A program made the position numbers and the translations under genes. Of a stretch of 64,000 nucleotides of DNA, positions 34,283-47,696 are shown one piece after another; positions within the stretch are counted from its first letter, which is position 1; the number at the start of each line of letters is the position of its first letter. This DNA comes from an uncultured Lentisphaerota bacterium (GTDB lineage Bacteria; Verrucomicrobiota; Kiritimatiellia; CAIQIC01). The stretch covers positions 3,621 through 67,620 of the forward strand of contig CAIWHP010000084.1 in NCBI GenBank assembly GCA_903912445.1. The letters run 5' to 3'. The notes beneath the pieces are model-generated. The model was not told the origin of the DNA, made no database searches, and worked only from the letters and a program-made list of their open reading frames with translations.

Positions 34283-34296
34283 TCTCTGCTCCCGCC

Positions 34297-34344
34297 TTCC
34301 AAGGCTTGGAAGAAATCACGATACTCTTTTCCAGACTTTGGGAA
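34297..34344. repeat. Palindromic element array R8 (2 copies, centres 34304 and about 34336)
   Basis: ttccaaggcttggaa, ttccagactttgggaa; 15 bp upstream of the GH5 ATG. Confidence 0.75.
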
Positions 34345-34737
34345 ACTCCTTTTAGTAACAGCGGAAAGCCCGAACTGCGCCATCACAAAACATACCGGCC
34401 GATTTATTCTGGCTATAACGACCAAGCTTCCACCGCAGATGAGCAGGTTTTCCCCGACTACGATCAGTATGACCCCGGTCCCGTTTACGATTGATTCGCC
34501 CAACGCCGCGCATCCGTATTGTCCTGCCGCGCCTAACGACCGCCGCAACCTCGCTCCCACGCGAAATTTCGCCCAACGAAAAGCTTGCTTTTGCGGGGCG
34601 CTGCGTAAAAATGCGCGCCTGATTTTTCAGTGTCATAGTGCGGTCGATAAGCGGCGCTCCCCCGGTGGGCGCGCCGAAACAATTTCTTATTTGGGTTAAT
34701 TGCTTTGAACTTTATTCTCCGTCGGTAGGGTCAAGCC

Positions 34738-36810
34738 ATGGGATTGCGCGCTTTGATCGGATTACGACTGCTGGCGACGGCCATGACGACGTCGGTCGTC
34801 TCCGCCGAGACCGTCTGGCTCGCCGACCTTAATCTATCGCCGGTCGTCCAGCCCTGGGGTCGACCCCAGAAAAACAGCTGCGCGGCGAGGAAGCCGGAGG
34901 ACGCTGCTCCGCTCAAGATTCGGGGGAAGGTCTTTGCGCGAGGTGTGGGCACGGTCGCCGAAAGCATCTTGGTCGTCTCGCTCGAAGGCGGCGCGAAGAC
35001 GTTTTCAGCCCAGGTCGGCCTGGATGACGCCAAGCGCGGATCTGCCAGGTCGAGCGTGGAATTCTTCGTCATCGGCGACGGCCGGATGCTCTGGCGCAGC
35101 GGCGTGATGCGCACCGGTACGGAAGCGAAGCCCTGCGAGGTGAACGTCGTCGGGGTGCGGCAGCTGATGCTCAAGGTCGGCGACGCGGAGGACGGTAATA
35201 ACGACGATTTCGCGGACTGGGCTGACGCCCGTTTCGAGACGACGGGGGCCAAGACTTTCCGGACCTCAGGAGAGCCCGTCCCCGCGCCGGTCGCGCCGTA
35301 TATTCTGACTCCGCCGCCGCCGGCCTCGCCTAGGATCAACGGACCGGGCGTCTTCGGCGTTCGTCCGGGCTCGCCGTTCCTGTATGCGATTCCGGCGACC
35401 GGTGAGCGCCCGCTCGCATATCAGGCCAAGGGTCTCCCGACGGGCCTGAGGCTGGACCCGAAGACCGGGCGAATCTCCGGCGTATTGTCCGCCAAGGGCG
35501 AATTCATCGTCACCCTCCGCGCCACGAACGCGCGCGGTTCCGCGGAGAAACGGTTCCGCATCGTCTGTGGCGACACCCTCGCGCTGACCCCGCCGATGGG
35601 GTGGAACAGCTGGAACTGCTTCGCCCAGACGGTCTCCGCCGAAAAGATCAAGGCCGCCGCTGACGCGATGGTCAGCACCGGCCTCGCCGACCACGGCTGG
35701 TCCTACGTCAACATCGACGACTACTGGCAGAACCACCTTCCGACGGACGAGAAGACCCTCCAGGACCTGGTTCGCCCGTTTCGTGACGAGCGCGGCGTCA
35801 TCGCCTCCAACGTCCGCTTTCCCGACATGAAGGGCCTCGCGGACTACATCCATGCCCGCGGGCTGAAGGCCGGACTATATTCCTCGCCGGGTCCGACGAC
35901 GTGCGGCAAATGCGCCGGCAGTTGGCTGCACGAGGAGCAGGATGCCCGCACCTTCGCCGAGTGGGGCTTCGATTTCCTTAAATATGACTGGTGCAGCTAC
36001 AGCTCCGTCGTGGAGGGCAAGGTCCCGACTCCTTCGGGCGTCCCGGTCCGGAAGGGCTCCAAGGACGACGCCTATGCGAGCCACCCTTTCAAGGTCATGG
36101 GCGGATACCTGCGCGCGCAGAAGCGCGACATCGTCTTCAGTCTCTGCCAGTACGGTAATAATGACGTGTGGAAATGGGGTGCGGCCGTCGGCGGCAGCAG
36201 CTGGCGCACCACGGGTGATGTGAATGACTCCTGGCGCAGCGTCCGAGAAATCGGCTTCACGCAGGACAAGGCCGCACCCTACGCCAAGCCGGGCAGCTGG
36301 ACCGATACGGACATGCTGATCCTCGGGTGGATCGGCTGGGGTCGTATGCGGCCGACCTCGCTGAGCGCGGATGAGCAATACGCCCACGTCAGCCTCTGGT
36401 GCATGCTCTCCTCGCCTTTGCTGATTGGTTGCGACATGACCAAACTGGATGCTTTCACCTTGAACCTGCTGGCCAATGACGAGGTGCTCGCGGTCAACCA
36501 GGATGAGCTGGGCCGGCAGGCGACGTGCGCGCTCCGGATTGAGGAGGTCGAGGGCAAGGTCGCCGATGTCCGGATCTATGCCAAGGACTTGGCAGATGGC
36601 GGCAGGGCGGTGGCGTTCTTCAATTTAGGCGTCGAGCCGGTAAAGTTGGCATTCAAGGAGTTCGGAAAACTGAAACTCTCGGGCCGACAGGTCGCGCGGG
36701 ATCTGTGGCGCCAACGGGACGTCGCCACGCCTGATACGGCGAAGGATGCCCTGCCGCTTCTCCTTCCCGGACATGGCGTGCTGCTCTATAAGTTCGCCGC
36801 GGCAAAATAG
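34738..36810 (+). CDS. GH27 alpha-galactosidase / alpha-N-acetylgalactosaminidase with N-terminal NPCBM-like carbohydrate-binding domain
   Basis: PPMGWNSWN and KYDWC GH27 catalytic motifs; N-terminal NPCBM/NEW2-like domain; signal peptide. Confidence 0.75.
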   Translation: MGLRALIGLRLLATAMTTSVVSAETVWLADLNLSPVVQPWGRPQKNSCAARKPEDAAPLKIRGKVFARGVGTVAESILVVSLEGGAKTFSAQVGLDDAKRGSARSSVEFFVIGDGRMLWRSGVMRTGTEAKPCEVNVVGVRQLMLKVGDAEDGNNDDFADWADARFETTGAKTFRTSGEPVPAPVAPYILTPPPPASPRINGPGVFGVRPGSPFLYAIPATGERPLAYQAKGLPTGLRLDPKTGRISGVLSAKGEFIVTLRATNARGSAEKRFRIVCGDTLALTPPMGWNSWNCFAQTVSAEKIKAAADAMVSTGLADHGWSYVNIDDYWQNHLPTDEKTLQDLVRPFRDERGVIASNVRFPDMKGLADYIHARGLKAGLYSSPGPTTCGKCAGSWLHEEQDARTFAEWGFDFLKYDWCSYSSVVEGKVPTPSGVPVRKGSKDDAYASHPFKVMGGYLRAQKRDIVFSLCQYGNNDVWKWGAAVGGSSWRTTGDVNDSWRSVREIGFTQDKAAPYAKPGSWTDTDMLILGWIGWGRMRPTSLSADEQYAHVSLWCMLSSPLLIGCDMTKLDAFTLNLLANDEVLAVNQDELGRQATCALRIEEVEGKVADVRIYAKDLADGGRAVAFFNLGVEPVKLAFKEFGKLKLSGRQVARDLWRQRDVATPDTAKDALPLLLPGHGVLLYKFAAAK

Positions 36811-36926
36811 CTCCAGCCCCAGTCTTTTCTCGTTATTCTCTATCGGGGAGGGATGCGATTGCCATCGCATCCGTCTGTATCGGGGTAGGGGCAGCACCGC
36901 GTGCTGCCCTAGGTTATCGGGAAGGG

Positions 36927-37205
36927 TTGAGCGGCCTCGCTAAACCGCGGTTGACCAAGAGTGGTCAGCCCTACCTTGAGGCAGTGATGCAGAACTCAAA
37001 GGAAGACCGGAAACCGGAGTTAACCACGCCGGCCCTGCGGCCCGTGCCGTCCGCGACGTGGAGGGAACTGATCAAGCTGGTGTGGGAGGTCGATCCTCTT
37101 CTCTGCCCGCGGTGCGACGCGGAAATGGTCGCAATCAACGACTTGGTAGTCACAACTAACATTCTGCGGCGGCAGGAATGCCGCCGCTCCCAGCTAGAAG
37201 CATAG
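36927..37205 (+). mobile_element. Remnant of an IS91-family (rolling-circle, Y2) transposase C-terminus
   Basis: WRELIKLVWEVDPLLCPRCDAEMVAINDLVVTTNILRRQ resembles the conserved IS91/IS801 C-terminal ...LLKRVF.ID...CP.CGG.M..IA.I.D..VI..IL.HLG; sits in a lower-GC patch. Confidence 0.35.
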
Positions 37206-37250
37206 TCGCCTCTGTACCTCGTCTTCCCTCTGCGCCCTCTGTGGGTTTCA

Positions 37251-38276
37251 TTATTTTTTTCGCAGCAGCGGCCGGATGATGACCCACCAGCCGTGCAGCA
37301 GGCCGCTCAAGATTTTGCCGAACAGTGCGAGGGCTTTCTTCTCCTGCACGGCACCGGGGAGTTCGAGCGTGCCGCCGGTCAGGGTCTGGCGGTCGGGCAC
37401 GCGCTTGTGCGCCATGACGAACTGCTGCTTCGTGCGGATTTTGCTGCGCGAGCGAGCCGCGTCCCAGCAGCCGCCGAGGAATGCGCCGCCCTGGCCTTTG
37501 ATGGCGAAGAAAAATCCGGCGCACAGCTGGTAGAGCAGGATGCCGGGCAGCGCGAGCCAGAAGGTGCGCGTGTCGTAGTGCGTCATCAGGAAACGCCAGC
37601 GGTTGCGCACCTGGAGGCGCACCCACTTGGTGCTGCGGCCGGCGCTCATGTGCCAGCAGACGGCCTGGCTGACGGCGTAGCAGGGGCGGCCGCAGACGGT
37701 CATGCGGAACGTCAGGTCACCATCCTCCCAGCCGAACATCAGGTCCTCGTCGTAGGCGCCGAGGTCGAGCGCGGCACGGCGGTTGAACAGCGCCGCGCCG
37801 GCGGAGACGGTGCCGACGACGAACGGGGCGGCGTGCACGGCACGGTTGACGACGACTTCGCCGGCGTAGTGGATGTCGGCGCCGTTGTACTGGACGCGCT
37901 CGGGCTCGGCGTGGAACCGGATCTGGCCGGTGACCGCGCCGGCGTCGGGGTGCTGGTCGAAGACGGCGGCGAGGCGCGCAGCATAGTCGGGCGCGAAGAG
38001 GATGTCATTGTCGAGCAGCAGCACGAGGTCGGTCTGCGCCTCGCGCAGCGCGCGGTTCCGGGCGGGGTTGGGGCCGCGGTTGTCTCCCATGTCGATCACG
38101 CGGACGCGGCTGCCGTAGCGTTCGCGCACCATCTGCGCCGAGCCGTCGGGCGAGGCGTTGTCCACCAGCAGGATCTCGGCGGTCTCGACGCCTGCCTGGG
38201 CGAACAGGCGCTCGAGCACCGGCGGCAGTGTGGCGGCGCCGTTGTAGTTGACGATGCCGAAGGTGATGCGGTGCAT
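37251..38276 (-). CDS. Family 2 glycosyltransferase
   Basis: ATG 38276 (MHRITFGIVNYNGA...); DNASPDGS, LDNDI (DXD). Confidence 0.75.
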   Translation of the reverse strand: MHRITFGIVNYNGAATLPPVLERLFAQAGVETAEILLVDNASPDGSAQMVRERYGSRVRVIDMGDNRGPNPARNRALREAQTDLVLLLDNDILFAPDYAARLAAVFDQHPDAGAVTGQIRFHAEPERVQYNGADIHYAGEVVVNRAVHAAPFVVGTVSAGAALFNRRAALDLGAYDEDLMFGWEDGDLTFRMTVCGRPCYAVSQAVCWHMSAGRSTKWVRLQVRNRWRFLMTHYDTRTFWLALPGILLYQLCAGFFFAIKGQGGAFLGGCWDAARSRSKIRTKQQFVMAHKRVPDRQTLTGGTLELPGAVQEKKALALFGKILSGLLHGWWVIIRPLLRKK

Positions 38277-38278
38277 GG

Positions 38279-39415
38279 TCAGGGCGAGGCCTCGACGGTG
38301 AGGTTCGGCGTGACCACCAGCGGCTGCGGCACGGCGGCGGCCTTGTGGCCGGGGGCCCACGCGCCGGCGCAGGGCAGGTGGTTCCGGTTCCGGTCGCCCG
38401 GGGTGAGCGCGATATCCATGGTGTAGCTGCCGGGCTGGAAGGCCGGTGGCGGCACCTTGAGCGTCTCGGTTTCTTTCCACACATCGCCGCCGTGGGGCAG
38501 GCCGCAGTCGAAGGTGAACGGGCCGCCCGCGCCGCGCAGCGTAAGCCAGACGTGCGCGCTGCTGCGCACCAGCGCGGCGGGCAGCTGCCAGTGCATCCGG
38601 ACGGCGACTTCCTTGGAGGACGCGACCCGTTCCGGCCATTGCACGCCGAGCAACTGCACGCCGTTGGCGTAGGCGGCCGGCGGCGCGACCGCGGCGGCCA
38701 GCAGCTCGGGGATCGTGACGAAGCGGTAGCCGCGCGCCTTGACCTGCGGGATCAGCCGCGCGACGGCCTGCACGGAGGCGACGCGGTGCGGGCCGTCGTT
38801 GGTCTCCTTGCCGTCGTGCAGCAGGAAGATCGCGCCGGGCGCGAGCTGGTCGAGCAGCGCGCCGGCGATTTCCTCCGGCGTATGCGGGTTCCAGTCGCTC
38901 GCCGCGGCCGACCAGCCGCCGATCACGTGGCCCGTGTCGCGGCAGATTTCGAAGTAGTCCTGGCCGTAGAGGCCGAACGGCGGGCGCATGAGGAGGGGCT
39001 TCTGGCCGGTCAGCTTCTCGAAGATGGCGTCGGCTTGCGTGATCTCCTCGCGGATGACCGCGGGCGTGCTCCGGTCAAAGCGCGGATGGCTGAGCGAGTG
39101 GTTGCCGATCGCGTGTCCGCCGGCGACGATCTCCTGGACGATGTCGGGGTGCTTCGCGGCGTTCAGGCCGATGAGCATGAACGTGACGTGGACGTTCTCC
39201 TTGGCGCAGATGGCGAGCAGCTGCCGCGTGCAGGGATCGTTGGGCCCGTCATCGAAGCTCAGGGCGACGAGCTTTTCCGCCACCGGCACGAAGTGCAGCA
39301 GCTCGCCCGGCTGCGCGACGAAACGCGGCGGCGCAGGCGGCGGCGGTGGCTGCCGTTGCCCGCAGCCGGTCATGAGCAACGCCGCAGCCAGCGCTCCGAA
39401 AATCATCCTGTTCAT
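38279..39415 (-). CDS. Polysaccharide deacetylase (NodB homology domain) lipoprotein
   Basis: LMTGC lipobox; SFDDGP, HSLSHP motifs; stop abuts the GT2 start. Confidence 0.75.
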   Translation of the reverse strand: MNRMIFGALAAALLMTGCGQRQPPPPPAPPRFVAQPGELLHFVPVAEKLVALSFDDGPNDPCTRQLLAICAKENVHVTFMLIGLNAAKHPDIVQEIVAGGHAIGNHSLSHPRFDRSTPAVIREEITQADAIFEKLTGQKPLLMRPPFGLYGQDYFEICRDTGHVIGGWSAAASDWNPHTPEEIAGALLDQLAPGAIFLLHDGKETNDGPHRVASVQAVARLIPQVKARGYRFVTIPELLAAAVAPPAAYANGVQLLGVQWPERVASSKEVAVRMHWQLPAALVRSSAHVWLTLRGAGGPFTFDCGLPHGGDVWKETETLKVPPPAFQPGSYTMDIALTPGDRNRNHLPCAGAWAPGHKAAAVPQPLVVTPNLTVEASP

Positions 39416-39448
39416 CTCATCTCCCCATTGCTAACGTCGTCGCCCGAT

Positions 39449-40435
39449 ATGAAACGATGGCAAAAAAATCTGTTGAAACTCGCCTTCATCACGGCCTGTT
39501 TCGCCATCATCTTTTCCAAAATTCACCCCGCCGAACTGAAACAGCACTTTGCCGAGGTGTCGCCCGGCTGGGTGCTGGCGGCGTGGCTCACCGTCCTCGC
39601 CGAGCCGCTGCTGGTCGCGGTGAAGTGGAATCTACTGCTAGGCGAAAAAGGAATCAACCTCGGCCTGCTGCGCATCGCGCGCATCGTTTTCACCAGCAAC
39701 TTCCTGTGCGTCGCGGTGCCGGTCAGCGTGGGCGCCGACGCGCTGCGGCTGATGATGGTCACGGGCGCGCAGCAGAGCTTCACCCATGCCGCCGGCGCGC
39801 TGGTCGCCGACCGCATCCTGGGGGCGCTGGCGATCATGGTGCTCTCGCTCGTCGGCGTCGCTTGGGCCGGGCTGGCGCTGCTGGGCGTGCAGACGCTCTG
39901 GACCATCCTCGTCCTCGCGGCCGCGGTCCTGACGCTGATCGGGCTGCTGCTCTCGCCGCTGCCGGTGTTCTGGGTGCCGCTGCTCAAGCGCCGGCTGGCC
40001 GGGCGCGGCCGGCTGGCGGCGCGCCTCGTCGCGGTCGCCGAGCGCGCCGTGGCGGTTCACGACTCGCTCACCTCGTTCCGGCATCATCCGGCCCAACTGG
40101 TGCGGGTCTTCGCGCTGAACCTGCTGGCCCAGATGCTGCGCGTGCTGCAGATCGTGCTGCTGTTCCGCGCCGTCGGCCACCCGGTGCCGGTGAGCCAGGC
40201 CGCGGCGTTCGTGCCGATCATCAACATGTTCACCCTGCTGCCGATCTCCTACTTCGGGCTGGGCGTCAAGGAAGGCGCGTTCCTCTATTTCTTCGGCCGC
40301 GCCGGCCTCGCGAAGGCGCTGTGCCTGACGGTCTCGTTCATCACCTACCCGCTGATCCTCGGCGCGATGCTGCCCGGCGCGCTCTTTGCGCTGCTCGACG
40401 CCCTCAAACGCCCCGCCGCTCCCAAGCCGGAGTGA
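39449..40435 (+). CDS. UPF0104 / MprF-like flippase-like integral membrane protein
   Basis: ATG 39449; about 8 TM helices; resembles the lysylphosphatidylglycerol-synthase TM-region family (TIGR00374). Confidence 0.6.
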   Translation: MKRWQKNLLKLAFITACFAIIFSKIHPAELKQHFAEVSPGWVLAAWLTVLAEPLLVAVKWNLLLGEKGINLGLLRIARIVFTSNFLCVAVPVSVGADALRLMMVTGAQQSFTHAAGALVADRILGALAIMVLSLVGVAWAGLALLGVQTLWTILVLAAAVLTLIGLLLSPLPVFWVPLLKRRLAGRGRLAARLVAVAERAVAVHDSLTSFRHHPAQLVRVFALNLLAQMLRVLQIVLLFRAVGHPVPVSQAAAFVPIINMFTLLPISYFGLGVKEGAFLYFFGRAGLAKALCLTVSFITYPLILGAMLPGALFALLDALKRPAAPKPE

Positions 40436-40437
40436 CC

Positions 40438-40515
40438 TTTCCCCGCCTTGGAAGCTGTTTCCTCCGGGTTTTCCGTGACTTGGAATGACGGCGGGCGGAG
40501 TTTTCTGGTCTGGAA
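40438..40515. repeat. Palindromic element array R9 (3 degenerate copies, centres about 40446, 40478, 40509)
   Basis: ttccccgccttggaa, ttccgtgacttggaa, ttctggtctggaa. Confidence 0.6.
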
Positions 40516-40565
40516 ACCAGTGGCAATGCAAAAGAAAATCTTGCTTTGAGCCCGCGTGGACGGCT

Positions 40566-42809
40566 ATGAAAGTCGCCGTTTGCCGTATTCCGGGACAAAA
40601 AATGACTCAACAAGATCCGATTCCATCCGATTCTTCGAAGCATGACGAGTGGTTCCTCGCCCAATTGGAAAAGCTGCCGGACATGGCGCCGGCCTTGCTG
40701 GACTTTCTCGATGCGCAGACGGCGCAGGGGCGGCTGGAGCAGGCCGATCAATGGTCCGAACTGCTGCTGGATGTGCTGGTCGAGCGCGCGGCGGTGGCCT
40801 TGGCGGTCGAATGCGTTCGTCGCCGTGCGTCGTGGTGGCCGGGCGTGCCGGAGAAGCGCGCGCTCTGGATGAAGCTCGCGCAACGGGCCCTGTCGCCGGT
40901 CCGCGAACTGCAGGGGCTCGCCAGTCACTCCGGCTTCGAGTCGCCGGTGCCGATGGCCGAATGTTTCCGCCGCCTGAAGCTCCTCTTGCTCCTGAAGCCG
41001 GGCTTGATGTGCCTCGACAAGACCTGGGGTTTTGGCGTGGTCCAGCGCGCGGACACGTTCTACGGGCGGGTGACGATCGATTTCGAGAAAAAGCGCGCCC
41101 ACGAGATGTCGCTGAGCTATGCGGCGGAGGCGCTGCAGTTGCCGGCCGCGGATCACATCCTCGTGCTGCGGCACCAGCAGCCCGACGAACTGCGCGCACT
41201 GGTCAAGGACGACGCGGCCGAGGTGGTCCGCCGGGCGCTGCGCAGTTTCGGCGCGCTGACGGCCGACGCGCTGCAGAAGCGGCTGGTGCCGGACGTCGTC
41301 GGCGAGGCCGACTGGAAGCGCTTCTGGGACGCCGCGCGCAAGGGGCTCAAGCAGGACCCGCTCGTCAAGCTGCCGGCCAAGCGCACCGAGACGATCCAGC
41401 TGCTGCAGAAGGCGCACGCCTACGATGCGGACTGGTTTGCCGTGTTTGCCAGGGAGCGTCACGTCCAGCCGATCCTCGACCACAGCGATGAACTGATCGT
41501 GGCGGGCGCCGAGGTGACGTGGAACGAGATGACGCGCGCGGCGGCCGCCGAACGGCTCGCCTTTGCGGCCAAGGGCGCCGGCCCGCGCCATCCGGCGCAG
41601 CTCGCGCGCCTGCTGATCAACGCCGACGCGCTCGGCCTGACGCTGACCGCCCAGGCCCACGTGCCCACGCCGGATGTCTTCCTGAACGCGAAATTGTTGA
41701 TCGCCACCCTGCACGATCTGCCGGTGCGGCTGGCCGCCCCGTTCCTCGACTGGCTGGCGACGAAGGATGCCGCGCGCACCGCGGAGCTGCTGCTCTCCGT
41801 TCTGCCGCAGCTCGAGCTTTCCGCGCTGACCGAGGCGATGGAACTGCTGCTCAAGAGTGACCACTCCGCGACCGCGGCGCAGACGTTCCGTGCCAGCATC
41901 GCGATGCAGAAGGCCGAGGTCGAGTTCCTGCTCTGGCTCTTCCGCCACCTTGAGCAGCTCAATGCGTGGGTGCCGGATACCTGGCCGGTGCTCGCCGGCC
42001 TGGTGCTGACGGAATTGGAGAAGGATTACATGGGCGAGCGGCTGCGGGCGCAGAACCAGCTCCGCGAGCTGGTCGAGGACGAGGCGTGGGTGCGGACCAC
42101 GCTCTCGCCGATGAGCGACGTGCAGCGCCGCGATTTCCTCGAACGCGTCAAGAAGGCGCCGAACTGGGCCGAGCTGGACCGGCGTTCGGCCATGGGCTGC
42201 ATCGTGCGGATGTTCCCCGACCTGGCCGGCGTGCTGGCGAACAAGCCGGAGGCCGTCGCGGCGCCCGCGCGCCCGGCCGTCACCGCGCGCCGCAGCTACC
42301 GCGCGCGGCAGCTGCAGTTCGAGAAGATCACCAACGTCGAGATCCCGCGGATTGCGCGCGAGATCGGCGTCGCGCGCGCCCACGGCGACTTGCGCGAGAA
42401 TTTCGAGTTCAAGGCGGCCAAGGAGATGCAGTCCGTGCTGGTGCGCCGCCAGGCGGAGCTGGAGGAGATGCTCTCCCGGATCCAGCCGAGCGACTTCCGC
42501 GACCTGCCGCGCGACCGCGCGGGCCTGGGCACATGCATCGCGCTGCTCTACGCCGACGGCCACCGCGAGACGTACAACATCCTCGGCGAGTGGGACCGCG
42601 AAGAGTCGCTGAACATCATCTCGTGCAACTCGCAGCTCGCGCTCGCGGTCGAAGGCAAGCGCGCCGGCGAAGCCGTCCGGGTGCCCGCGAACGACGGCGG
42701 CACCGAGTGCCAGCTGGCCGAGGTCGGCGACCTGCCCCCGGCGGTGCAGGCGTGGATCGTCTCCGAGCCCCCGCCGCCCGAGGATGTGGGTGCCGAGAGG
42801 ACAGCATGA
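40566..42809 (+). CDS. Large protein with complete C-terminal GreA/GreB transcript-cleavage-factor domain and about 580-aa N-terminal helical region of unknown function
   Basis: C-terminal ARAHGDLRENFEFKAAKEMQ (GreA coiled coil) and YNILGEWDREESLNIISCNSQLALAVEGKRAGEAV (FKBP-like domain). Start ATG 40566 or 40602. Stop overlaps the gtrA-like start. Confidence 0.65.
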   Translation: MKVAVCRIPGQKMTQQDPIPSDSSKHDEWFLAQLEKLPDMAPALLDFLDAQTAQGRLEQADQWSELLLDVLVERAAVALAVECVRRRASWWPGVPEKRALWMKLAQRALSPVRELQGLASHSGFESPVPMAECFRRLKLLLLLKPGLMCLDKTWGFGVVQRADTFYGRVTIDFEKKRAHEMSLSYAAEALQLPAADHILVLRHQQPDELRALVKDDAAEVVRRALRSFGALTADALQKRLVPDVVGEADWKRFWDAARKGLKQDPLVKLPAKRTETIQLLQKAHAYDADWFAVFARERHVQPILDHSDELIVAGAEVTWNEMTRAAAAERLAFAAKGAGPRHPAQLARLLINADALGLTLTAQAHVPTPDVFLNAKLLIATLHDLPVRLAAPFLDWLATKDAARTAELLLSVLPQLELSALTEAMELLLKSDHSATAAQTFRASIAMQKAEVEFLLWLFRHLEQLNAWVPDTWPVLAGLVLTELEKDYMGERLRAQNQLRELVEDEAWVRTTLSPMSDVQRRDFLERVKKAPNWAELDRRSAMGCIVRMFPDLAGVLANKPEAVAAPARPAVTARRSYRARQLQFEKITNVEIPRIAREIGVARAHGDLRENFEFKAAKEMQSVLVRRQAELEEMLSRIQPSDFRDLPRDRAGLGTCIALLYADGHRETYNILGEWDREESLNIISCNSQLALAVEGKRAGEAVRVPANDGGTECQLAEVGDLPPAVQAWIVSEPPPPEDVGAERTA

Positions 42810-43300
42810 AGCACCTGCTCAAGCAGTTCACGCAGCGCGAGGCCAACGTCCACATCCAGTTCATCAAGTACGCCATCGCCGGCGGCATCGCCACGGCGGT
42901 GGACATGGTGACGTTCTCGCTCTGCGCGTGGCTGCTGCTGCCGGCGCTGTCGGAGAACGAGTGGATCGTGAAGCTGTTTCATATCCAGGTGCCGGTGATG
43001 AGCGACCAGGTGCGCGCGTGGCACTTCGTCGCCTGTACGGCGATCGCGTTCTGCTTCTCGAACACCACGGCCTATATCATTGACGTCCTCTGGGTATTTC
43101 ATCCCGGCCGTCATTCACGCCTCAAGGAGTTCCTCCTGTTCTTCGGCGTTTCGCTCACCTCGACCTTCGTCGGCACCGGCCTCGGCTGGATGCTGATCCG
43201 TTGGATGGGCTGGGGTGCGGCCATGTCCTACATCGCCAAAGTCGGCGCCGCGCTGGCCATCAACTACGCTGGCCGCAAGTTCTTCGTCTTCCAGCGGTGA
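42806..43300 (+). CDS. GtrA family membrane protein
   Basis: IKYAIAGGIATAVD ... NYAGRKFFVF; 4 TM helices. Confidence 0.7.
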   Translation: MKHLLKQFTQREANVHIQFIKYAIAGGIATAVDMVTFSLCAWLLLPALSENEWIVKLFHIQVPVMSDQVRAWHFVACTAIAFCFSNTTAYIIDVLWVFHPGRHSRLKEFLLFFGVSLTSTFVGTGLGWMLIRWMGWGAAMSYIAKVGAALAINYAGRKFFVFQR

Positions 43301-43303
43301 CCC

Positions 43304-44842
43304 ATGGCCCTTCCGCGCGCCAGCGGAATTCTGCTGCATCCGACCTCGCTGCCGGGCCCGTGGGGCATCGGCGAGCTCGGCCCGCAGGCCGCCGCCTTCG
43401 TCCGCGACCTCGCCGCGATGCGCCAAAAATATTGGCAGGTCCTGCCGCTCGGTCCGACCGGCTACGGCGACTCGCCCTATCAATCCTTCTCCAGTTTCGC
43501 CGGCAATCCGCTGCTGATCAGCTTCGATGCGTTGCTCGCCGATGGTTTGCTGACGCGCGCCGAGCTGGAAAAGTTCCCCGTGCTGCCGGAAGACCGCGTG
43601 GATTTCGGCGCCGTCATCCCGGCCCGCTACGCCGTGCTTCGCGCCGTCACCGCCGCGTTTGCGCAGCGCGCCTCCGCCGCGCTGCAAGACGAGTTCCGCC
43701 GCTTCTGCGCGCGGCACGCCGGCTGGCTCGATGACTACGCTTTGTTCATGGCGCTCAAGGCCGCGCACGGCGGCGGCTCGTGGACCGGCTGGCCCGCGGC
43801 ATATGCGCGCCGTGACCCGGCCGCGCTCGCCGCCGCGCGCGAACGCTGGCGCACCGAGATCGACGACGTGCGCATCCTGCAATTCCTCTTTGACCGCCAG
43901 TGGCAGGCGTTGCGCCAGCTCGCGCGGCAGCAGGGCATCCAGGTGATCGGCGACGCGCCGATCTTCGTCGCCCAGGACAGCGCCGATGTCTGGGCCAACC
44001 GGGAGCTTTTCTACCTCGACGAGGCCGGCCGCCCGACGGCGGTCGCCGGCGTGCCGCCGGATTATTTCAGCGCCACCGGCCAGCTCTGGGGCAATCCCCT
44101 CTACCGCTGGGACGCGCACGCCGCGACCGGCTACGCGTGGTGGCTTGCGCGCCTGCGCCGCACGCTGGAGCTGGTGGACCTCGTGCGGCTCGATCATTTT
44201 CGCGGCTTCGAGGCCTACTGGGAAGTTCCCGCCGGCGAGCCGACGGCGATCCACGGCCGCTGGGTGCAAGGCCCAGGCGCGCCGTTCCTCGCCGCGCTGC
44301 GCGACGCGCTGGGCGGATTGCCGTTGATCGCCGAGGATCTCGGGCTGATCACCGACGCCGTCCACCGCCTGCGCGACGAGTTCGCGCTGCCGGGGATGCG
44401 CATCCTGCAATTCAGCTTCGGCCATCTGGGGCGCGAGCCGCAGCAGCTGCCGGAGGCGTTTCCGGAAAATTGCGCCGTCTATTCCGGCACGCACGACAAC
44501 GACACCACCTGCGGCTGGTTTCACGCCGCGCCCGGCGCGAGCGACACGCGCGCCGGCGATGCCGTCCTCGCCGAGCGCGCCTACATCCTGAAATATCTCC
44601 ACAAGCGCAAAGCCACCGACATCCACTGGGCCTTCATCAGGCTCGCCTTTCAGAATCAGGCGCGGCTCGCCATCGTGCCGCTGCAGGACGTGCTCGGGCT
44701 CGGCTCCGAGGCGCGGATGAACACGCCCGGCATTCCCGGCGGCAACTGGCAGTGGCGCCTGGGCCGCGGCGCGCTCACCCGCGCGCTGAAGAATCGCCTC
44801 GCCCTCCTGACCGTGGCGACCGGCCGCGCCAGCCACGCGTAG
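43304..44842 (+). CDS. malQ: 4-alpha-glucanotransferase (amylomaltase, GH77)
   Basis: GILLHPTSLPG, YGDSPYQS, GDAPIFVA, LGNPLY, HDNDT motifs. Confidence 0.85.
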   Translation: MALPRASGILLHPTSLPGPWGIGELGPQAAAFVRDLAAMRQKYWQVLPLGPTGYGDSPYQSFSSFAGNPLLISFDALLADGLLTRAELEKFPVLPEDRVDFGAVIPARYAVLRAVTAAFAQRASAALQDEFRRFCARHAGWLDDYALFMALKAAHGGGSWTGWPAAYARRDPAALAAARERWRTEIDDVRILQFLFDRQWQALRQLARQQGIQVIGDAPIFVAQDSADVWANRELFYLDEAGRPTAVAGVPPDYFSATGQLWGNPLYRWDAHAATGYAWWLARLRRTLELVDLVRLDHFRGFEAYWEVPAGEPTAIHGRWVQGPGAPFLAALRDALGGLPLIAEDLGLITDAVHRLRDEFALPGMRILQFSFGHLGREPQQLPEAFPENCAVYSGTHDNDTTCGWFHAAPGASDTRAGDAVLAERAYILKYLHKRKATDIHWAFIRLAFQNQARLAIVPLQDVLGLGSEARMNTPGIPGGNWQWRLGRGALTRALKNRLALLTVATGRASHA

Positions 44843-44939
44843 AGGAGAGGTGCGGTCGGCTGCCCTGGGTTTCGGGGCGTCGCGTGCAGTTCAAGGTTGA
44901 GAAGCAACGCGCCGTTGGCTACAAAGCTCGCACCACCGC

Positions 44940-46067
44940 ATGAAGATTTTGCTAATAGAGTTCCGCGACATCACCCATCCCGAGGCGGGCGGCGCCGAGG
45001 TGGTGCTGCAGCAGGTGTTCCGGCGGATCGCCGCCGCCGGGCACCAGGTGGATTATCTCTGCAACCATTACCCCGGCGCCGCGCGCGAGGAAAGGCGCGA
45101 CGGCATCCGCATCATCCGGCGCGGGCGGCAGCCCTATTTCAATTTCTTCGTCCCGTGGGTCTATCATCGCGAGCTGCGGCGGAACGGCTACGACGTGATT
45201 GTCGAGGGCATCGACAAGGTCCCGTTCAACATGCCTTGGTTCGAGCGGCGTGTGCCGGTGGTGTGCATCGTGCCGCACCTGTTCGGCACCACGGTCTTCC
45301 GCGAGGCCTCGAAGCCGGTCGCCGCCTACGTCTATCTGCTGGAGCGCTCGATCTCCCGCGCCTACCGCCACTGCCTGTTTTCCGTGCTTTCCGACAGCAC
45401 CAAGGCCGACCTCACCGGGCGGGGCATCCCCGCCGCGCAGGTGCGCGTGATCCGCAGCGGACTCACGCAGGACGACTACAGCGCGCCCGCGGCCAAGCCG
45501 GCGGGCGATCACCCCGTCATCCTCTATGTCGGCCGCCTCAAGCGCTACAAGGGCATCGAGCTGGGCTTCGAGGCGGTGCGGCAGCTGCGCGCCAAGCATC
45601 CGCGCATCGAATATGCGATCGTGGGCGGTGGCGATTATCTGCCGGAGCTGAAGCGGCAGGTCGCCGCGCTCGGACTCGAGGGGCACGTCAGCTTCCGCGG
45701 TTACGTGGAGCACGCCGAGAAGGTGGCGCTGTTGCAGCGGGCGTCCGTGCTGATCTACACCTCGCCCAAGGAAGGCTGGGGCCTGTCGGTCATCGAGGCC
45801 AACGCATGCGGCACGCCGGTGGTCGCCAGCGACGCGCCGGGGCTGCGCGAGTCGGTGAAGCACGGCGAGACGGGGTTTCTCGTGCCGCACGGCGATGCCA
45901 CCGCGCTGGCGCAGCGGATCGACCAGCTGCTCTCCGACGGCGCGCTCTACGCCGCCTTCCGCCAGAACGGTCTGGCGTGGGCGCACTCGTTCACGTGGGA
46001 ACGCGCCAGCGCCGAGACGCTCGCCCTGCTCGAAGAGGCCCGCCTCCGCGGCCCGGTCCACGCCTAA
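44940..46067 (+). CDS. Family 4 (GT-B) glycosyltransferase
   Basis: EGWGLSVIEANACGTPVVASD ... ETGFLV. Confidence 0.8.
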   Translation: MKILLIEFRDITHPEAGGAEVVLQQVFRRIAAAGHQVDYLCNHYPGAAREERRDGIRIIRRGRQPYFNFFVPWVYHRELRRNGYDVIVEGIDKVPFNMPWFERRVPVVCIVPHLFGTTVFREASKPVAAYVYLLERSISRAYRHCLFSVLSDSTKADLTGRGIPAAQVRVIRSGLTQDDYSAPAAKPAGDHPVILYVGRLKRYKGIELGFEAVRQLRAKHPRIEYAIVGGGDYLPELKRQVAALGLEGHVSFRGYVEHAEKVALLQRASVLIYTSPKEGWGLSVIEANACGTPVVASDAPGLRESVKHGETGFLVPHGDATALAQRIDQLLSDGALYAAFRQNGLAWAHSFTWERASAETLALLEEARLRGPVHA

Positions 46068-46098
46068 ACCCGAAACAAAGTATGGCGCAAGCGCGGGT

Positions 46099-46127
46099 TT
46101 GACGGGCTGCGGATTTCTCCGCATACT
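46099..46127 (+). promoter_or_regulatory. Sigma70-like promoter candidate TTGACG-N17-CATACT
   Basis: Sequence match only, 60-80 bp upstream of the 46187/46205 start. Confidence 0.3.
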
Positions 46128-46204
46128 GCGGCCGCGCTTTGTGGCGCCGGTGGGGCACCCGGATGGCGCCCCGCGCGGCACCCGATATGCTTTCAACAGG
46201 CAGC

Positions 46205-46663
46205 ATGGAAACGACACGCATCGCAATTTGGAAACGGCCCAATCCGCTCGAATGGATCGCCTTCTGGCAGTTTATGGGCTTCCTGCTGCTGGTGGCGGTG
46301 GTCTGGGTGGACCAGGTGCTGGATCTGCAGGAGGTCTTCTTTGGTGTGGCGCGCACCAAGGATTCGTGGCTGGGCGCGACGCTCCTGACGGTGGCGATCA
46401 TCCTCATCGGGTTCATCACGATCGCCCACACGTTCGTCCAGCAGCGGCACGCGCTGCACGGTTTTCTGCGCATCTGCACCTACTGCAAGCGGATCAAGCT
46501 CGACAACCAGAAGTGGGAGCAGATGGAGAAGTATGTGTCGGACCGCTCGCGCGCCGAGTTCTCGCACGGCATCTGCCCCGACTGCTTCCGGCGCACCGTG
46601 GCGGACCTGGAGGCGCAGGGCCTGATGGCACCCGAGCCCGCCGAAAGAAAAGATCATGCCTGA
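46205..46663 (+). CDS. Small membrane protein with C-terminal CxxC...CxxC zinc-ribbon
   Basis: 2-3 TM helices then CTYCKRIK...x24...CPDCFRR; alternative ATG 46187. Confidence 0.5.
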   Translation: METTRIAIWKRPNPLEWIAFWQFMGFLLLVAVVWVDQVLDLQEVFFGVARTKDSWLGATLLTVAIILIGFITIAHTFVQQRHALHGFLRICTYCKRIKLDNQKWEQMEKYVSDRSRAEFSHGICPDCFRRTVADLEAQGLMAPEPAERKDHA

Positions 46664-47681
46664 ACAAACCCTTGGTCGATTGCTCGCCGGTGCCCCCGAG
46701 GCCCTCGCGCGCGGCGCCGCCCGTTTCGCGGCGCAGCCGGTGGATTGGGATCTGCTGGCGGAGCCGGCCGCGCCGCTGCCGGCGCGGCAGACGACGCTCC
46801 AGCGAGCCTTCACCGTCGAAGGCCCGGGCACCTTCCTCGGCCGGCACCTGCGCCGGCTGACGTTCGAGCCGCGCGAGACCGGCGGCTGGTGGATCCAGCG
46901 CGACGATCAGACCGATGCCTTGCCCTTCAACGTGGCGGCGCGCAACGTGTGGACCACCGGGGACGTGGTCAGCAACATCGTCCTGCGCGCCGGCCCGCTG
47001 CACAACTATCTGCGCATGGTCGAGCACATCATCGCGCTCAAGGTCGGGCTGGGGCTCGACCACGTGCTGGTCCGCACCGAGGCCGGCGATCCGCCGCTCT
47101 TCGCGCGCGGCAGCCTCGACCTCGTCGAGGGCATCGAAAAGGCCGGGCTGCGGGAGCTCGCGGCGCCCGCGGAATATTGGACGGTGAAGGAGCCGGTCGT
47201 GATGTGCACGCCGTCCGGCGCCTTCCTCGCGCTCGCTCCGTGCCGCGGCGCGCAGCCGGAACTGCGGCTGGATTGCGCCGTGGATTTCCCGAACGCCCTA
47301 GGCCGGCAGCGCATCCGCTTCCGCGTCAATCCCGCGCTGACGCGCTACGCCTCCGAGGCGCGCACGAACACGCCGCTGTGGAAAATGTTTTACTGCAAGA
47401 CGGTCGGGAAACTCTTCGCCGACATCCGCCACCTGGGCTACACGACGGAAAACATCCTGATCGCCGGCCGCAACAGCTACTACAACACGCCGCGGCTGCT
47501 GCACGAGGGCAAGAGCCTGGAGGCGGTCTGGCACCGGGCCGTGCTCGACCTCCTCGCCGCGATCGCGCTGATCGAGGAAGGCCGTTTCTGCGGCGAGATC
47601 ACCTCGTTCAAGGCCGGGCACCACCTCGATGTGCAGCTGGTCTGCCAGCTCTACCGGCACGGGCTGCTGCGGAAATTCTGA
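46656..47681 (+). CDS. LpxC-like (UDP-3-O-acyl-GlcNAc deacetylase family) protein, paralog embedded in the glycoconjugate cluster
   Basis: MVEHIIALKVGLGLDHVLVRTEAGDPPLFARGS resembles the LpxC HTxEHLLAAL.GLGIDN..IE....E.PIMDGS; SFKAGHHLDVQLV resembles the LpxC HH..N motif. Confidence 0.6.
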   Translation: MPEQTLGRLLAGAPEALARGAARFAAQPVDWDLLAEPAAPLPARQTTLQRAFTVEGPGTFLGRHLRRLTFEPRETGGWWIQRDDQTDALPFNVAARNVWTTGDVVSNIVLRAGPLHNYLRMVEHIIALKVGLGLDHVLVRTEAGDPPLFARGSLDLVEGIEKAGLRELAAPAEYWTVKEPVVMCTPSGAFLALAPCRGAQPELRLDCAVDFPNALGRQRIRFRVNPALTRYASEARTNTPLWKMFYCKTVGKLFADIRHLGYTTENILIAGRNSYYNTPRLLHEGKSLEAVWHRAVLDLLAAIALIEEGRFCGEITSFKAGHHLDVQLVCQLYRHGLLRKF

Positions 47682-47696
47682 CGCCGGGACGCGCCC

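What the first reader, a model, noticed from the sequence alone, without database searches (positions are those of the whole stretch)
40566..43300. About 750-aa protein ending in a complete GreA/GreB domain, co-translated with gtrA inside a glycoconjugate cluster
The C-terminal 160 aa align with full-length GreA (coiled-coil ARAHGDLRENFEFKAAKEMQ and FKBP-like YNILGEWDREESLNIISCNSQLALAVEG). The preceding roughly 580 aa are helical and of unknown function. The stop overlaps the ATG of a GtrA-family membrane protein (ATGA at 42806-42809), and the gene follows a repeat array (R9). A secondary-channel-binding domain fused to a large extension, placed in a polysaccharide/glycolipid biosynthesis cluster, suggests a specialised transcription factor or a non-transcriptional reuse of the Gre fold.
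Basis: partly seen in the sequence, partly recalled or inferred. Interest (0 to 1): 0.55.

Follow-up and report, generated by a model that had tools for sequence, protein, structure and literature searches.

The report
Long GreA with extra polymerase-docking module
This gene encodes the long form of the transcription rescue factor GreA that is standard in Verrucomicrobia-like bacteria, chlamydiae and spirochaetes, and its unexplained front part contains a small barrel domain of the kind other proteins use to dock onto RNA polymerase, so it is an ordinary housekeeping gene with a partly new domain reading.

Summary
The ORF is real, but it starts at 40602, not 40566, giving 735 aa (40602-42809, + strand). 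Its last 175 aa are a complete GreA. Both Pfam domains score above threshold, the acidic tip GDLREN is invariant across the family, and the model matches E. coli GreA with a TM-score of 0.79. The stop codon overlaps the gtrA start (ATGA, 42806-42809).

The fusion is a known kind. More than 900 protein clusters share the N-terminal part. Of 114 related ORFs with an intact 3' end, 113 carry it fused to GreA. NCBI already has models for the chlamydial (718 aa) and spirochaete (906 aa) versions, and Pfam lists PF27167 HTH_GRAD on this branch.

The extension is not simply helical. It contains a helical array, a Tudor-like barrel (131-180), a winged helix (181-275) and an alpha-solenoid. The barrel resembles the RNA-polymerase-binding Tudor domains of UvrD/PcrA, CarD and Mfd, which suggests a second anchor on the polymerase.

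The glycoconjugate cluster is not conserved around the gene. Even so, gtrA follows it in 33 of 103 evaluable loci and a GT2 in six more. No repeat array lies upstream.

Verdict: a housekeeping Gre factor, not a cluster-specific regulator.

The parts
40602..42809 (+). Long greA coding sequence, 735 aa plus stop. The true start is the ATG at 40602.
   Evidence: ORF. The start is fixed by the N-termini of homologues. GC3 is 0.88.
40632..40991 (+). N-terminal helical-hairpin array (residues 11-130). It is poorly conserved, absent in Chthoniobacterales/Akkermansiaceae forms and expanded in spirochaete forms.
   Evidence: AF2 model helices 11-130, pLDDT above 86. Alignment A4. Mean identity is 34% in the close set and 17% in the diverse set.
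40992..41141 (+). Tudor-like five-stranded beta-barrel (residues 131-180) with the family-wide WGxG motif (W142, G143, G145) plus F161 and H167.
   Evidence: AF2 strands 136-170, pLDDT 95-98. The Foldseek top hits are UvrD, UvrD1 and PcrA Tudor domains and CarD/CdnL. A profile hits the T. thermophilus UvrD CTD at E=0.0037. Individual members hit Pfam DUF3553, CarD_TRCF_RID and PcrA_UvrD_tudor. G143 and G145 are invariant in 28 diverse sequences.
41142..41426 (+). Winged helix-turn-helix (residues 181-275). The putative recognition helix carries the invariant motif W238-K239-x-x-W242-x-x-A245-R246-x-x-L249, followed by a beta-hairpin wing. It probably corresponds to Pfam PF27167 HTH_GRAD.
   Evidence: The order of secondary-structure elements fits a winged helix. 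NCBIfam chlamydial and spirochaete models match residues 119-288.
41427..42239 (+). Alpha-solenoid / TPR-like helical array (residues 276-546).
   Evidence: AF2 helices 276-546. Only weak Foldseek matches to TPR and solenoid proteins. Mean identity is 37% and 17%.
42240..42278 (+). Flexible linker (residues 547-559).
   Evidence: pLDDT is below 50 at residues 548-555. It is the least conserved segment.
42279..42491 (+). GreA N-terminal coiled coil (residues 560-630).
   Evidence: Pfam PF03449 at 60.5 bits. Alignment to 1grj. Foldseek match to GreA, GreB and Gfh1.
42384..42401 (+). Acidic tip GDLREN (residues 595-600). D596 and E599 correspond to E. coli GreA D41 and E44.
   Evidence: Alignment to 1grj. 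G595, D596, L597, E599 and N600 are invariant in alignments A1 and A4. Coordinates.
42492..42761 (+). GreA C-terminal FKBP-like globular domain (residues 631-720).
   Evidence: Pfam PF01272 at 37.6 bits. Fold match.
42797..42809 (+). Translational-coupling junction: Shine-Dalgarno-like GAGGA (42797-42801), then ATGA (42806-42809), where the gtrA ATG overlaps the greA TGA.
   Evidence: Sequence read. The same -3 overlap, or a gap of only about 8-12 nt, occurs in many relatives.
42806..43300 (+). gtrA, a 164-aa GtrA/DPMS-type membrane protein.
   Evidence: PF04138 at 59.2 bits. Orthologues of 164-167 aa lie directly downstream in 33 of 103 evaluable loci.
43304..44842 (+). malQ (4-alpha-glucanotransferase, GH77), 3 nt after gtrA. 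Probably the same transcript.
   Evidence: PF02446 at 590 bits. It lies downstream of greA in 13 loci. No terminator-like site lies between the genes.
44940..46067 (+). GT4-type glycosyltransferase, possibly the last gene of the same transcript.
   Evidence: PF00534 at 160.9 bits. It is also present after malQ in L001.

Best explanation
The gene encodes this lineage's ordinary Gre transcript-cleavage factor in its long form. Residues 560-720 are a complete GreA. [quoted passage not shown] This activity is inferred from homology. The 555-aa extension is a conserved accessory module with four parts: a helical array, a Tudor-like barrel, a winged helix and an alpha-solenoid. The Tudor barrel belongs to the structural and sequence class that UvrD/PcrA, CarD/CdnL and Mfd use to dock on the RNAP beta subunit. 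I therefore propose that it gives the factor a second anchor on RNAP beside the secondary channel. I also propose that the adjacent winged helix, with its invariant W-K-x-x-W-x-x-A-R motif, contacts nucleic acid. Both steps are inferred. The helical arrays would act as spacers. The gene is housekeeping. It heads a probable operon with gtrA (translationally coupled), malQ and perhaps a GT4. It is not a regulator dedicated to the surrounding glyco-genes. My confidence by step: family identity about 0.95, cleavage-factor activity about 0.8, Tudor domain as an RNAP anchor about 0.5.
For: Both Gre domains score above the Pfam cut-offs. The protein aligns with E. coli GreA residues 9-154 at E=3e-15, with GDLKEN matched by GDLREN. 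The AF2 model has pLDDT 89.9 and matches 1grj at TMt 0.79, and also GreB and Gfh1 in RNAP complexes. The tip residues are invariant in 57 close and 28 diverse sequences. The N-terminal part alone retrieves 918 clusters, nearly all about 720 aa long. Of 114 related ORFs with an intact 3' end, 113 carry the GreA domains. Residues 119-288 match the chlamydial NF004969 model (5e-18) and the spirochaete NF011309 model (1e-20). Real chlamydial and treponemal relatives pass those models' cut-offs. For the Tudor barrel, the core model has pLDDT 92.5. Its top Foldseek hits are 7egt_B, the T. thermophilus UvrD CTD (TMt 0.86, rmsd 1.5 A, 30% identity), then 4kbm_B CarD-RNAP beta, 9dqs UvrD1 Tudor, 2lqk CdnL, 7egs_B UvrD CTD on the RNAP lobe, and 5dma PcrA Tudor. 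An independent sequence profile hits the same UvrD CTD at E=0.0037. Individual members hit CarD_TRCF_RID (6), PcrA_UvrD_tudor (5) and DUF3553 (8). PcrA residues H681, W684, K712 and L714 are needed for RNAP binding (PMC5397179). By register with the UvrD alignment, they fall on the family's H/D139, W142, H167 and M169, of which W142 and H167 are invariant in the close set. The Tudor and wHTH segments are as conserved (64% and 54%) as the Gre coiled coil (60%) and more conserved than the helical arrays (34-37%). Upstream neighbours differ in every relative examined.
Against: No biochemical data exist for any long GreA in the literature I could search. The Foldseek E-values for the 50-residue barrel are weak (0.03-0.3), and no member reaches a Pfam gathering score for a Tudor family. 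KOW domains of NusG/Spt5 and histone-reader Tudor domains appear in the same hit list, so the barrel's partner is not determined. The window protein has Asp rather than His at the position equivalent to PcrA H681. The inter-domain geometry is uncertain (pTM 0.52), so the model does not show that both anchors can bind at once. I could not check whether the genome also holds a short canonical GreA. The recurrent gtrA/GT2 neighbour (39 of 103 loci) is not explained by this account.
Confidence: 0.7

Rival explanations
1. This is a dedicated regulator of envelope glycoconjugate genes. In this reading the long Gre factor is specialised to help transcription of, or is functionally coupled to, the gtrA/GT2/malQ genes that follow it.
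For: gtrA lies directly downstream, often with a 4-nt overlap, in 33 of 103 evaluable loci, in relatives whose N-terminal part is as little as 30% identical to the window's. The other neighbours differ. A membrane GT2 overlaps the greA stop in 6 more loci.
Against: Sixty-four of 103 loci have neither gene. Other loci have a DksA-like gene, enolase or coproporphyrinogen oxidase downstream. Upstream genes are never conserved. The family includes the chlamydial GreA, where C. trachomatis is listed as greA-positive and greB-negative. A Gre factor acts on RNAP in general and has no known way to select genes. Housekeeping operons often carry unrelated passenger genes.
Confidence: 0.08
2. The barrel is a KOW/Tudor adaptor for a partner other than RNAP, for example ribosomal protein S10, a helicase or a repair protein. 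The extension would then couple the Gre factor to translation or repair machinery rather than anchor it to the polymerase.
For: NusG/Spt5 KOW domains (9bct_G, 4zn1_A, 6gov_G) and eukaryotic Tudor readers are in the same Foldseek hit list. One member hits KOWx_SPT5 weakly. The UvrD CTD also binds UvrB (7egt is a UvrD CTD-UvrB complex).
Against: The best structural and sequence matches are the bacterial RNAP-interacting Tudor domains. The residues needed for RNAP binding in PcrA map onto the most conserved positions of this barrel.
Confidence: 0.15
3. The protein is a Gfh1-like inhibitor, or a non-transcriptional (for example chaperone) reuse of the Gre fold. It would occupy the secondary channel without stimulating cleavage, or not bind RNAP at all.
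For: Gfh1 structures are among the fold matches. Sequence alone cannot separate activating from inhibitory Gre homologues with certainty. The protein scores below the TIGR01462 greA cut-off (94.8 against 139).
Against: The GDLxEN tip is invariant in all lineages. The best sequence match is GreA itself, not GreB or the NDK regulator. In Chlamydia the long form is the annotated greA and greB is absent.
Confidence: 0.05
4. The long ORF is an annotation artefact: two genes read as one, or a start far downstream that gives a normal 160-aa GreA.
For: There is no Shine-Dalgarno sequence before the ATG at 40602. In high-GC DNA long spurious ORFs are common; a 719-aa antisense ORF overlaps this gene.
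Against: GC3 is 0.88 over the whole frame. Of 114 related ORFs with an intact 3' end, 113 are single ORFs with both parts. The N-terminal part is conserved at the protein level in 918 clusters. AF2 folds the whole chain with pLDDT 89.9.
Confidence: 0.01

Closest known systems
Chlamydial long GreA (NCBIfam NF004969 / PRK06330, 'transcript cleavage factor/unknown domain fusion protein', 718 aa; C. trachomatis CTL0004, 715 aa)
   Same: It has about the same length and the same domain order, with an N-terminal extension followed by a complete GreA. Residues 119-273 of the window protein match model positions 125-281 (5e-18), and the Gre part matches as well. A Neptunochlamydia relative found through the window's N-terminal part passes this model at 844 bits.
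   Different: The window protein scores 135.8 bits against a cut-off of 697, so it is not an equivalog. Outside the Tudor-wHTH core and the Gre domains the helical arrays are barely alignable (17% identity). The one chlamydial locus examined (L038) has no gtrA downstream.
Spirochaete long GreA (NCBIfam NF011309 / PRK14720, 906 aa)
   Same: It shares the same Tudor-wHTH core (window residues 133-288 match model positions 308-463, 1e-20) and the same C-terminal GreA. A Treponemataceae relative passes the model at 939 bits.
   Different: The spirochaete form carries about 190 extra N-terminal residues of helical repeats. The window protein scores 167 bits against a cut-off of 714.
Canonical GreA (E. 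coli, 158 aa, PDB 1GRJ)
   Same: Residues 560-720 have both Gre domains, the acidic tip and the same fold.
   Different: Canonical GreA has no extension. The window protein scores below the cut-offs of all short-GreA equivalog models.
Tudor-like RNAP-interaction domains of UvrD/PcrA (PF21196), CarD/CdnL and Mfd (PF02559)
   Same: All share a five-stranded barrel with an aromatic-G-x-G first hairpin. These are the best structural and profile matches. Per PMC5397179, these domains bind the RNAP beta subunit.
   Different: In this protein the barrel sits inside a Gre factor and is followed by a winged helix, not attached to a helicase, a translocase or the CarD helical domain. No member reaches a Pfam gathering score, and binding to RNAP is untested.
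Pfam PF27167 HTH_GRAD
   Same: This is the precomputed Pfam hit on the N-terminal part of every full-length homologue listed, including ones 88-90% identical to the window protein.
   Different: The model is not in the local Pfam copy, so I could see neither its boundaries nor its description, and I found no paper that names it.

Membership tests
Gre factor family (GreA/GreB) | N-terminal coiled-coil domain (Pfam PF03449) above the gathering score | tested here: met
   60.5 bits against 24.5, covering profile positions 5-70 of 71.
Gre factor family (GreA/GreB) | C-terminal globular domain (Pfam PF01272) above the gathering score | tested here: met
   37.6 bits against 26.9.
Gre factor family (GreA/GreB) | Two acidic residues at the coiled-coil tip (E. 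coli GreA D41 and E44) | tested here: met
   D596 and E599 in GDLREN align with GDLKEN of 1grj. They are invariant in alignments A1 and A4.
Gre factor family (GreA/GreB) | Gre fold | tested here: met
   Foldseek: 1grj at TMt 0.79 (rmsd 3.1 A), 2p4v at 0.73, and Gfh1 in an RNAP complex at 0.76.
Gre factor family (GreA/GreB) | Stimulates endonucleolytic transcript cleavage by RNAP | not testable with these tools
   This needs an in vitro cleavage assay.
Short GreA equivalogs (TIGR01462, NF001260-NF001264) | Whole-protein score at or above the curated cut-off | tested here: not met
   TIGR01462 gives 94.8 bits against 139. The best short equivalog gives 86.7 against 167.
NCBIfam NF004969 (chlamydial GreA fusion) | Whole-protein score at or above 697 bits | tested here: not met
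   135.8 bits. A chlamydial relative scores 844.5.
NCBIfam NF011309 (spirochaete long GreA) | Whole-protein score at or above 714 bits | tested here: not met
   167.1 bits. A treponemal relative scores 939.3.
Long GreA superfamily (Tudor-wHTH extension plus GreA in one chain) | The N-terminal core is homologous to that of the chlamydial and spirochaete forms and fused to GreA | tested here: met
   The N-terminal part alone matches both models at 5e-18 and 1e-20. Of 114 related ORFs with an intact 3' end, 113 are fused.
Pfam PF27167 HTH_GRAD | Match to the PF27167 model | not testable with these tools
   The model is absent from the local Pfam copy (one search returned nothing relevant). As a proxy, all full-length homologues, including ones 88-90% identical, carry the precomputed hit.
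Tudor-like RNAP-interaction domains (UvrD/PcrA, CarD/CdnL, Mfd) | Five-stranded Tudor/SH3-like barrel | tested here: met
   Core model pLDDT is 92.5. 7egt_B gives TMt 0.86 at rmsd 1.5 A, 9dqs gives 0.72 and 5dma gives 0.69.
Tudor-like RNAP-interaction domains (UvrD/PcrA, CarD/CdnL, Mfd) | Significant sequence match to the family models | tested here: inconclusive
   The profile hits the UvrD CTD at E=0.0037. The best per-member Pfam E-values are 9e-4 (CarD_TRCF_RID), 7e-4 (PcrA_UvrD_tudor) and 2e-4 (DUF3553), found in 6, 5 and 8 of 28 members. The window sequence itself does not hit the first two families, and its weak DUF3553 hit (13.4 bits) is below the 20.3-bit gathering score.
Tudor-like RNAP-interaction domains (UvrD/PcrA, CarD/CdnL, Mfd) | Binds the RNAP beta subunit | not testable with these tools
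   This needs a pull-down, a two-hybrid assay, or a complex structure or prediction.
GtrA family (downstream gene) | PF04138 above the gathering score | tested here: met
   59.2 bits against 26.1, with the full profile 1-117 matched.

The most novel reading that the evidence does not exclude
The long Gre factors of the PVC group (Planctomycetota, Verrucomicrobiota, Chlamydiota and relatives), spirochaetes and related phyla may be held on RNAP by two anchors: the Gre domain in the secondary channel and a UvrD/Mfd/CarD-type Tudor barrel on the beta subunit. The winged helix would touch DNA or RNA. The factor would then behave almost like a resident subunit and would occupy or compete for the docking site used by repair and initiation factors. 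In a large sub-clade, its translational coupling to a GtrA-type membrane protein might reflect a real functional tie between transcription rescue and envelope glycosylation genes rather than operon inertia.
Probability: 0.3. Interest if true: 0.55.

Novelty: new member of a known kind. Interest (0 to 1): 0.3.

Why it matters
Long GreA proteins are the Gre factors annotated in chlamydiae and spirochaetes, which include major pathogens, and across the Verrucomicrobia-like phyla. NCBI still labels the chlamydial extension 'unknown domain', and a 2024 review says only that the protein is unusually large (PMC10995303). Reading the conserved core of the extension as a Tudor-type polymerase-docking barrel plus a winged helix gives a concrete hypothesis that mutants can test. 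The hypothesis is that the extension gives these Gre factors an extra hold on the polymerase. It also points to possible competition with Mfd, UvrD and CarD at stalled polymerases. For this window the practical result is that the gene should be annotated as a housekeeping greA. It should not be treated as a regulator of the neighbouring polysaccharide genes.

Tried and rejected
1. Alternative starts at 40485 or 40566: rejected, because all homologues start at the residue matching 40602.
2. A repeat array upstream ('R9'): TRF and the repeat finder found only two-copy GC-rich chance matches in 38000-40700.
3. A regulatory RNA in the 166-nt gap before the gene or elsewhere in 36000-47000: no Rfam match at E<=0.1.
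4. A promoter and terminator scan of 40300-46200 gave nothing above shuffle expectation inside the greA-gtrA-malQ stretch.
5. Pfam on the N-terminal 563 aa of the window protein alone gave only noise. A PDB sequence search with the whole protein found only GreA and GreB.
6. Foldseek with the whole model gave only Gre factors plus weak TPR/solenoid hits. The barrel became visible only after I folded residues 100-290 separately.
8. Literature searches for studies of long GreA or for the name HTH_GRAD found no functional work. One apparent hit (PMC7203096) was a word-prefix artefact.
9. A metagenome scan with the diverse core alignment A5 failed for lack of a conserved stretch. It worked with the closer set A6.
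10. I could not test whether the same genomes also hold a short GreA, because only flanks of 5-8 kb were available.
Full report
**Observation**

The + strand ORF 40485-42809 is present. It has the codon bias of a real gene in this 65-69% GC window, with GC3 of 0.88. Every close and distant homologue begins at the residue that matches the ATG at 40602, with the pattern M-x-x-Q-x-x-IPSDPSQHEEWFL. The protein is therefore 735 aa (40602-42809).

Pfam finds both Gre domains above their gathering scores. GreA_GreB_N scores 60.5 bits and GreA_GreB scores 37.6 bits. The C-terminal 160 residues align with residues 9-154 of the 158-aa E. coli GreA at E=3e-15. The tip motif GDLREN (residues 595-600, 42384-42401) lines up with E. 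coli GDLKEN, so the equivalents of D41 and E44 are present.

The stop codon overlaps the start of the next gene (ATGA at 42806-42809), and a GAGGA sits 5 nt before that ATG. The next gene is a 164-aa GtrA-family protein (PF04138, 59.2 bits). The 'repeat array' said to precede the gene is not there. Both repeat tools return only two-copy GC-rich chance matches inside coding sequence.

**How common the fusion is**

A search with the whole protein returned 233 hits. The 120 listed are nearly all 705-780 aa and carry the same three precomputed Pfam hits: PF27167, PF03449 and PF01272. Source names include Verrucomicrobia, Kiritimatiellaeota, Lentisphaerota and Spartobacteria MAGs, and the nearest is 90% identical.

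The N-terminal 563 aa alone, scored against 1.84 billion cluster representatives, matched 918 proteins at E<=0.001 and 204 at E<=1e-30. Nearly all of the best 150 are about 720 aa.

I fetched DNA for 125 related loci from genomes and metagenomes and scanned their ORFs with profiles built from the window's own parts. Of 114 ORFs with an intact 3' end, 113 carry the N-terminal module and the GreA domains in one reading frame. The labelled genomes include:
- Pontiellaceae and other Kiritimatiellota
- Chthoniobacterales, Pedosphaera and Akkermansiaceae
- Omnitrophota
- Planctomycetota
- Neptunochlamydia
- Treponemataceae, Brevinemataceae and other spirochaetes
- Thermoanaerobaculia

**What is already known**

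NCBI's family library contains two full-length models of this kind. NF004969 ('transcript cleavage factor/unknown domain fusion protein', 718 aa) and NF011309 ('transcription elongation factor GreA', 906 aa) are the window protein's two best hits. Both fall far below the models' cut-offs: 136 bits against 697 and 167 bits against 714.

The match is not limited to the Gre part. The N-terminal 555 aa alone match both models through residues 119-288, at 5e-18 and 1e-20. A Neptunochlamydia relative passes NF004969 at 844 bits and a Treponemataceae relative passes NF011309 at 939 bits. Akkermansiaceae and Planctomycetota relatives behave like the window protein and pass neither.

The window protein therefore belongs to a third branch of a known superfamily, one that NCBI has not modelled as an equivalog. 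The precomputed tables name PF27167 as 'HTH_GRAD'. That model is not in the local Pfam copy, and I found no paper that uses the name.

The only literature statement I found on a long GreA is in a 2024 review. It notes that C. trachomatis GreA is 715 aa against 158 aa in E. coli and that greB is absent. [quoted passage not shown]

**Anatomy of the extension**

With a 57-sequence alignment, AlphaFold2 gives a confident model with mean pLDDT 89.9. The pTM is only 0.52, so the domains are well defined but their mutual arrangement is not. The parts, in order, are:
- helical hairpins, residues 11-130
- a small beta-barrel, strands 136-170
- a helix-strand-helix-helix-hairpin unit with winged-helix topology, residues 186-267
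- a long alpha-solenoid, residues 276-546
- a disordered linker, residues 548-555
- the Gre coiled coil and globular domain, residues 560-720

The whole model matches GreA, GreB and Gfh1 (1grj at TMt 0.79). Otherwise it matches only TPR-like repeat proteins, and weakly.

Conservation is uneven. Against the 56 closer homologues, the barrel (64%) and the winged helix (54%) are about as conserved as the Gre coiled coil (60%). The helical arrays are at 34-37%. Across 28 sequences from all lineages, the only invariant positions outside the Gre domain are G143 and G145 of a W-G-x-G motif in the barrel. In the closer set, invariant residues cluster in the barrel (T141, W142, G143, G145, F161, H167) and in the putative recognition helix and wing (W238, K239, W242, A245, R246, L249, D252, P258, R261). 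The N-terminal hairpins are missing in Chthoniobacterales and Akkermansiaceae forms and are expanded by about 190 residues in spirochaetes.

**Identity of the barrel**

Residues 100-290 folded on their own give pLDDT 92.5. The Foldseek hits against the PDB are led by bacterial Tudor-like domains that bind RNA polymerase (RNAP):
- T. thermophilus UvrD C-terminal domain (7egt_B; TMt 0.86, rmsd 1.5 A, 30% identity over 50 columns)
- M. tuberculosis CarD bound to RNAP beta (4kbm_B)
- M. smegmatis UvrD1 Tudor domain (9dqs)
- CdnL N-terminal domain (2lqk)
- E. coli UvrD C-terminal domain on the RNAP lobe (7egs_B)
- PcrA Tudor domain (5dma)

NusG/Spt5 KOW domains and eukaryotic Tudor readers rank lower in the same list. 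The E-values are weak (0.03-0.3), as expected for a 50-residue domain.

I therefore looked for independent sequence evidence. A profile of the core from 28 diverse sequences hits the same T. thermophilus UvrD domain as its best PDB match, at E=0.0037. When the 28 members are scanned one by one, the three most frequent Pfam families are DUF3553 (8 members, best 2e-4), CarD_TRCF_RID (6 members, 9e-4) and PcrA_UvrD_tudor (5 members, 7e-4). All of these are sub-threshold.

In G. stearothermophilus PcrA, residues H681, W684, K712 and L714 are each required for RNAP binding (PMC5397179). The HMM alignment to UvrD (VVHPRFGPG ... GLKRLSL) lets me place these residues by register. They would correspond to position 139 (His in most lineages, Asp in the window's branch), W142, H167 and M169. 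Two of the four are invariant in the close set. This mapping is an inference from alignment register and was not tested.

**Mechanism**

The Gre part carries everything that defines an active Gre factor, and these features are invariant across phyla. The default reading is therefore a working transcript-cleavage factor that enters the secondary channel.

I propose that the barrel adds a second contact with the RNAP beta subunit and that the winged helix contacts DNA or RNA. From my own knowledge of E. coli RNAP, not tested here, the beta lobe and its SI1 insertion border the secondary channel and are touched by DksA. A Tudor barrel on the lobe and a Gre domain on the beta' rim helices would then be neighbours rather than far apart.

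The alternative partners suggested by the KOW-like hits (ribosomal protein S10, or UvrB as in 7egt) cannot be excluded. Nothing shown here proves binding.

**Genomic context**

In the window the gene sits among glyco-genes:
- GT2 (37251-38276, - strand)
- polysaccharide deacetylase (38279-39415, - strand)
- LPG_synthase_TM protein (39449-40435, + strand)
- gtrA
- malQ
- GT4
- an LpxC-like protein
- an MFS transporter

In seven relatives looked up by exact protein, the upstream genes are different every time. They include a cellulase, PEPCK, VIT1 and hypothetical proteins. Six of the seven nevertheless have gtrA directly downstream, and four also have malQ further downstream.

Over all evaluable loci, gtrA follows within 200 nt in 33 of 103, counting the window. 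The breakdown is 7 of 8 protein look-ups, 2 of 33 species genomes and 23 of 61 metagenome loci. The junction often shows the same 4-nt overlap or a gap of 8-12 nt. Other recurrent downstream genes are:
- a membrane GT2 that overlaps the greA stop (6 loci)
- a DksA/TraR zinc-finger protein (about 8 loci)
- coproporphyrinogen oxidase (4 loci)
- enolase in Akkermansiaceae

The greA-gtrA pair is therefore a real, clade-level synteny and not a peculiarity of this window. The wider 'cluster' is not conserved, and two thirds of the family have no such neighbour. I read the pair as an inherited operon arrangement with a passenger gene. A functional tie cannot be excluded and is not explained.

No terminator-like or promoter-like site above shuffle expectation separates greA, gtrA and malQ. 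No Rfam family matches the region.

**Verdict**

The protein is a Gre factor fused to a large extension, but it is the lineage's normal long GreA. It is a new member of a known and already annotated kind. It is neither a cluster-specific regulator nor a reuse of the fold outside transcription.

This work adds two things. The first is a domain-level reading of the 'unknown' extension as a Tudor-type RNAP-docking barrel plus a winged helix flanked by helical spacers, together with the hypothesis that follows from it. The second is the count showing that a GtrA-type gene is a frequent, tightly coupled downstream partner. Interest is modest at 0.3.

Noticed in passing
window 42806-43300; loci L001-L007, L011, L012, L046, L047, L049, L051 and others: A 164-167-aa GtrA-family gene lies directly after the long greA in 33 of 103 evaluable loci. 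It often shows a 4-nt ATGA overlap or an 8-12 nt gap, while the upstream genes differ. malQ lies further downstream in 13 loci. The reason for this conserved pairing is unexplained.
   Followed up: partly
L008 8269-8940; L053 6970-7581; L013, L014, L015, L072: In about eight loci the gene after the long greA is a DksA/TraR-type zinc-finger protein of about 200-220 aa with a Lys/Ala/Pro-rich N-terminus. This places two putative secondary-channel factors side by side.
   Followed up: partly
L009 7115-8302; L059, L063, L064, L065, L069: In six loci a membrane GT2 glycosyltransferase starts at or just before the greA stop. This is a second kind of envelope-glycosylation gene tightly joined to the long greA.
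   Followed up: partly
L054 1897-3456: This is the only related ORF with an intact 3' end that lacks the GreA domains (519 aa). A GtrA-like ORF lies 463 nt downstream. It may be a frameshift or an assembly error.
   Followed up: no
L013, L015, L021 (genome contigs): Contigs labelled Muribaculaceae, Faecalibacterium and Bifidobacteriaceae encode about 630-680-aa long GreA proteins typical of Kiritimatiellae/Verrucomicrobiota. These are probably binning contaminants in those MAGs.
   Followed up: no
window 40404-42563, - strand: A 719-aa antisense ORF overlaps almost the whole greA gene. Its translation is Arg/Gly/Leu-rich, as expected from high-GC codon bias on the opposite strand. It is not a gene.
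   Followed up: partly
window 46626-47681 and 47682-48824: An LpxC-family deacetylase homologue (PF03331, 101 bits) is followed directly by an MFS transporter, downstream of the GT4. This could be a non-lipid-A use of an LpxC-like enzyme in a glycolipid pathway.
   Followed up: no
window 34729-36810: A 693-aa protein combines an NPCBM domain, a He_PIG Ig-like domain and an alpha-galactosidase (Melibiase_2 plus its C-terminal domain). It lies next to a GH5-like gene at 33158-34315 on the - strand.
   Followed up: no
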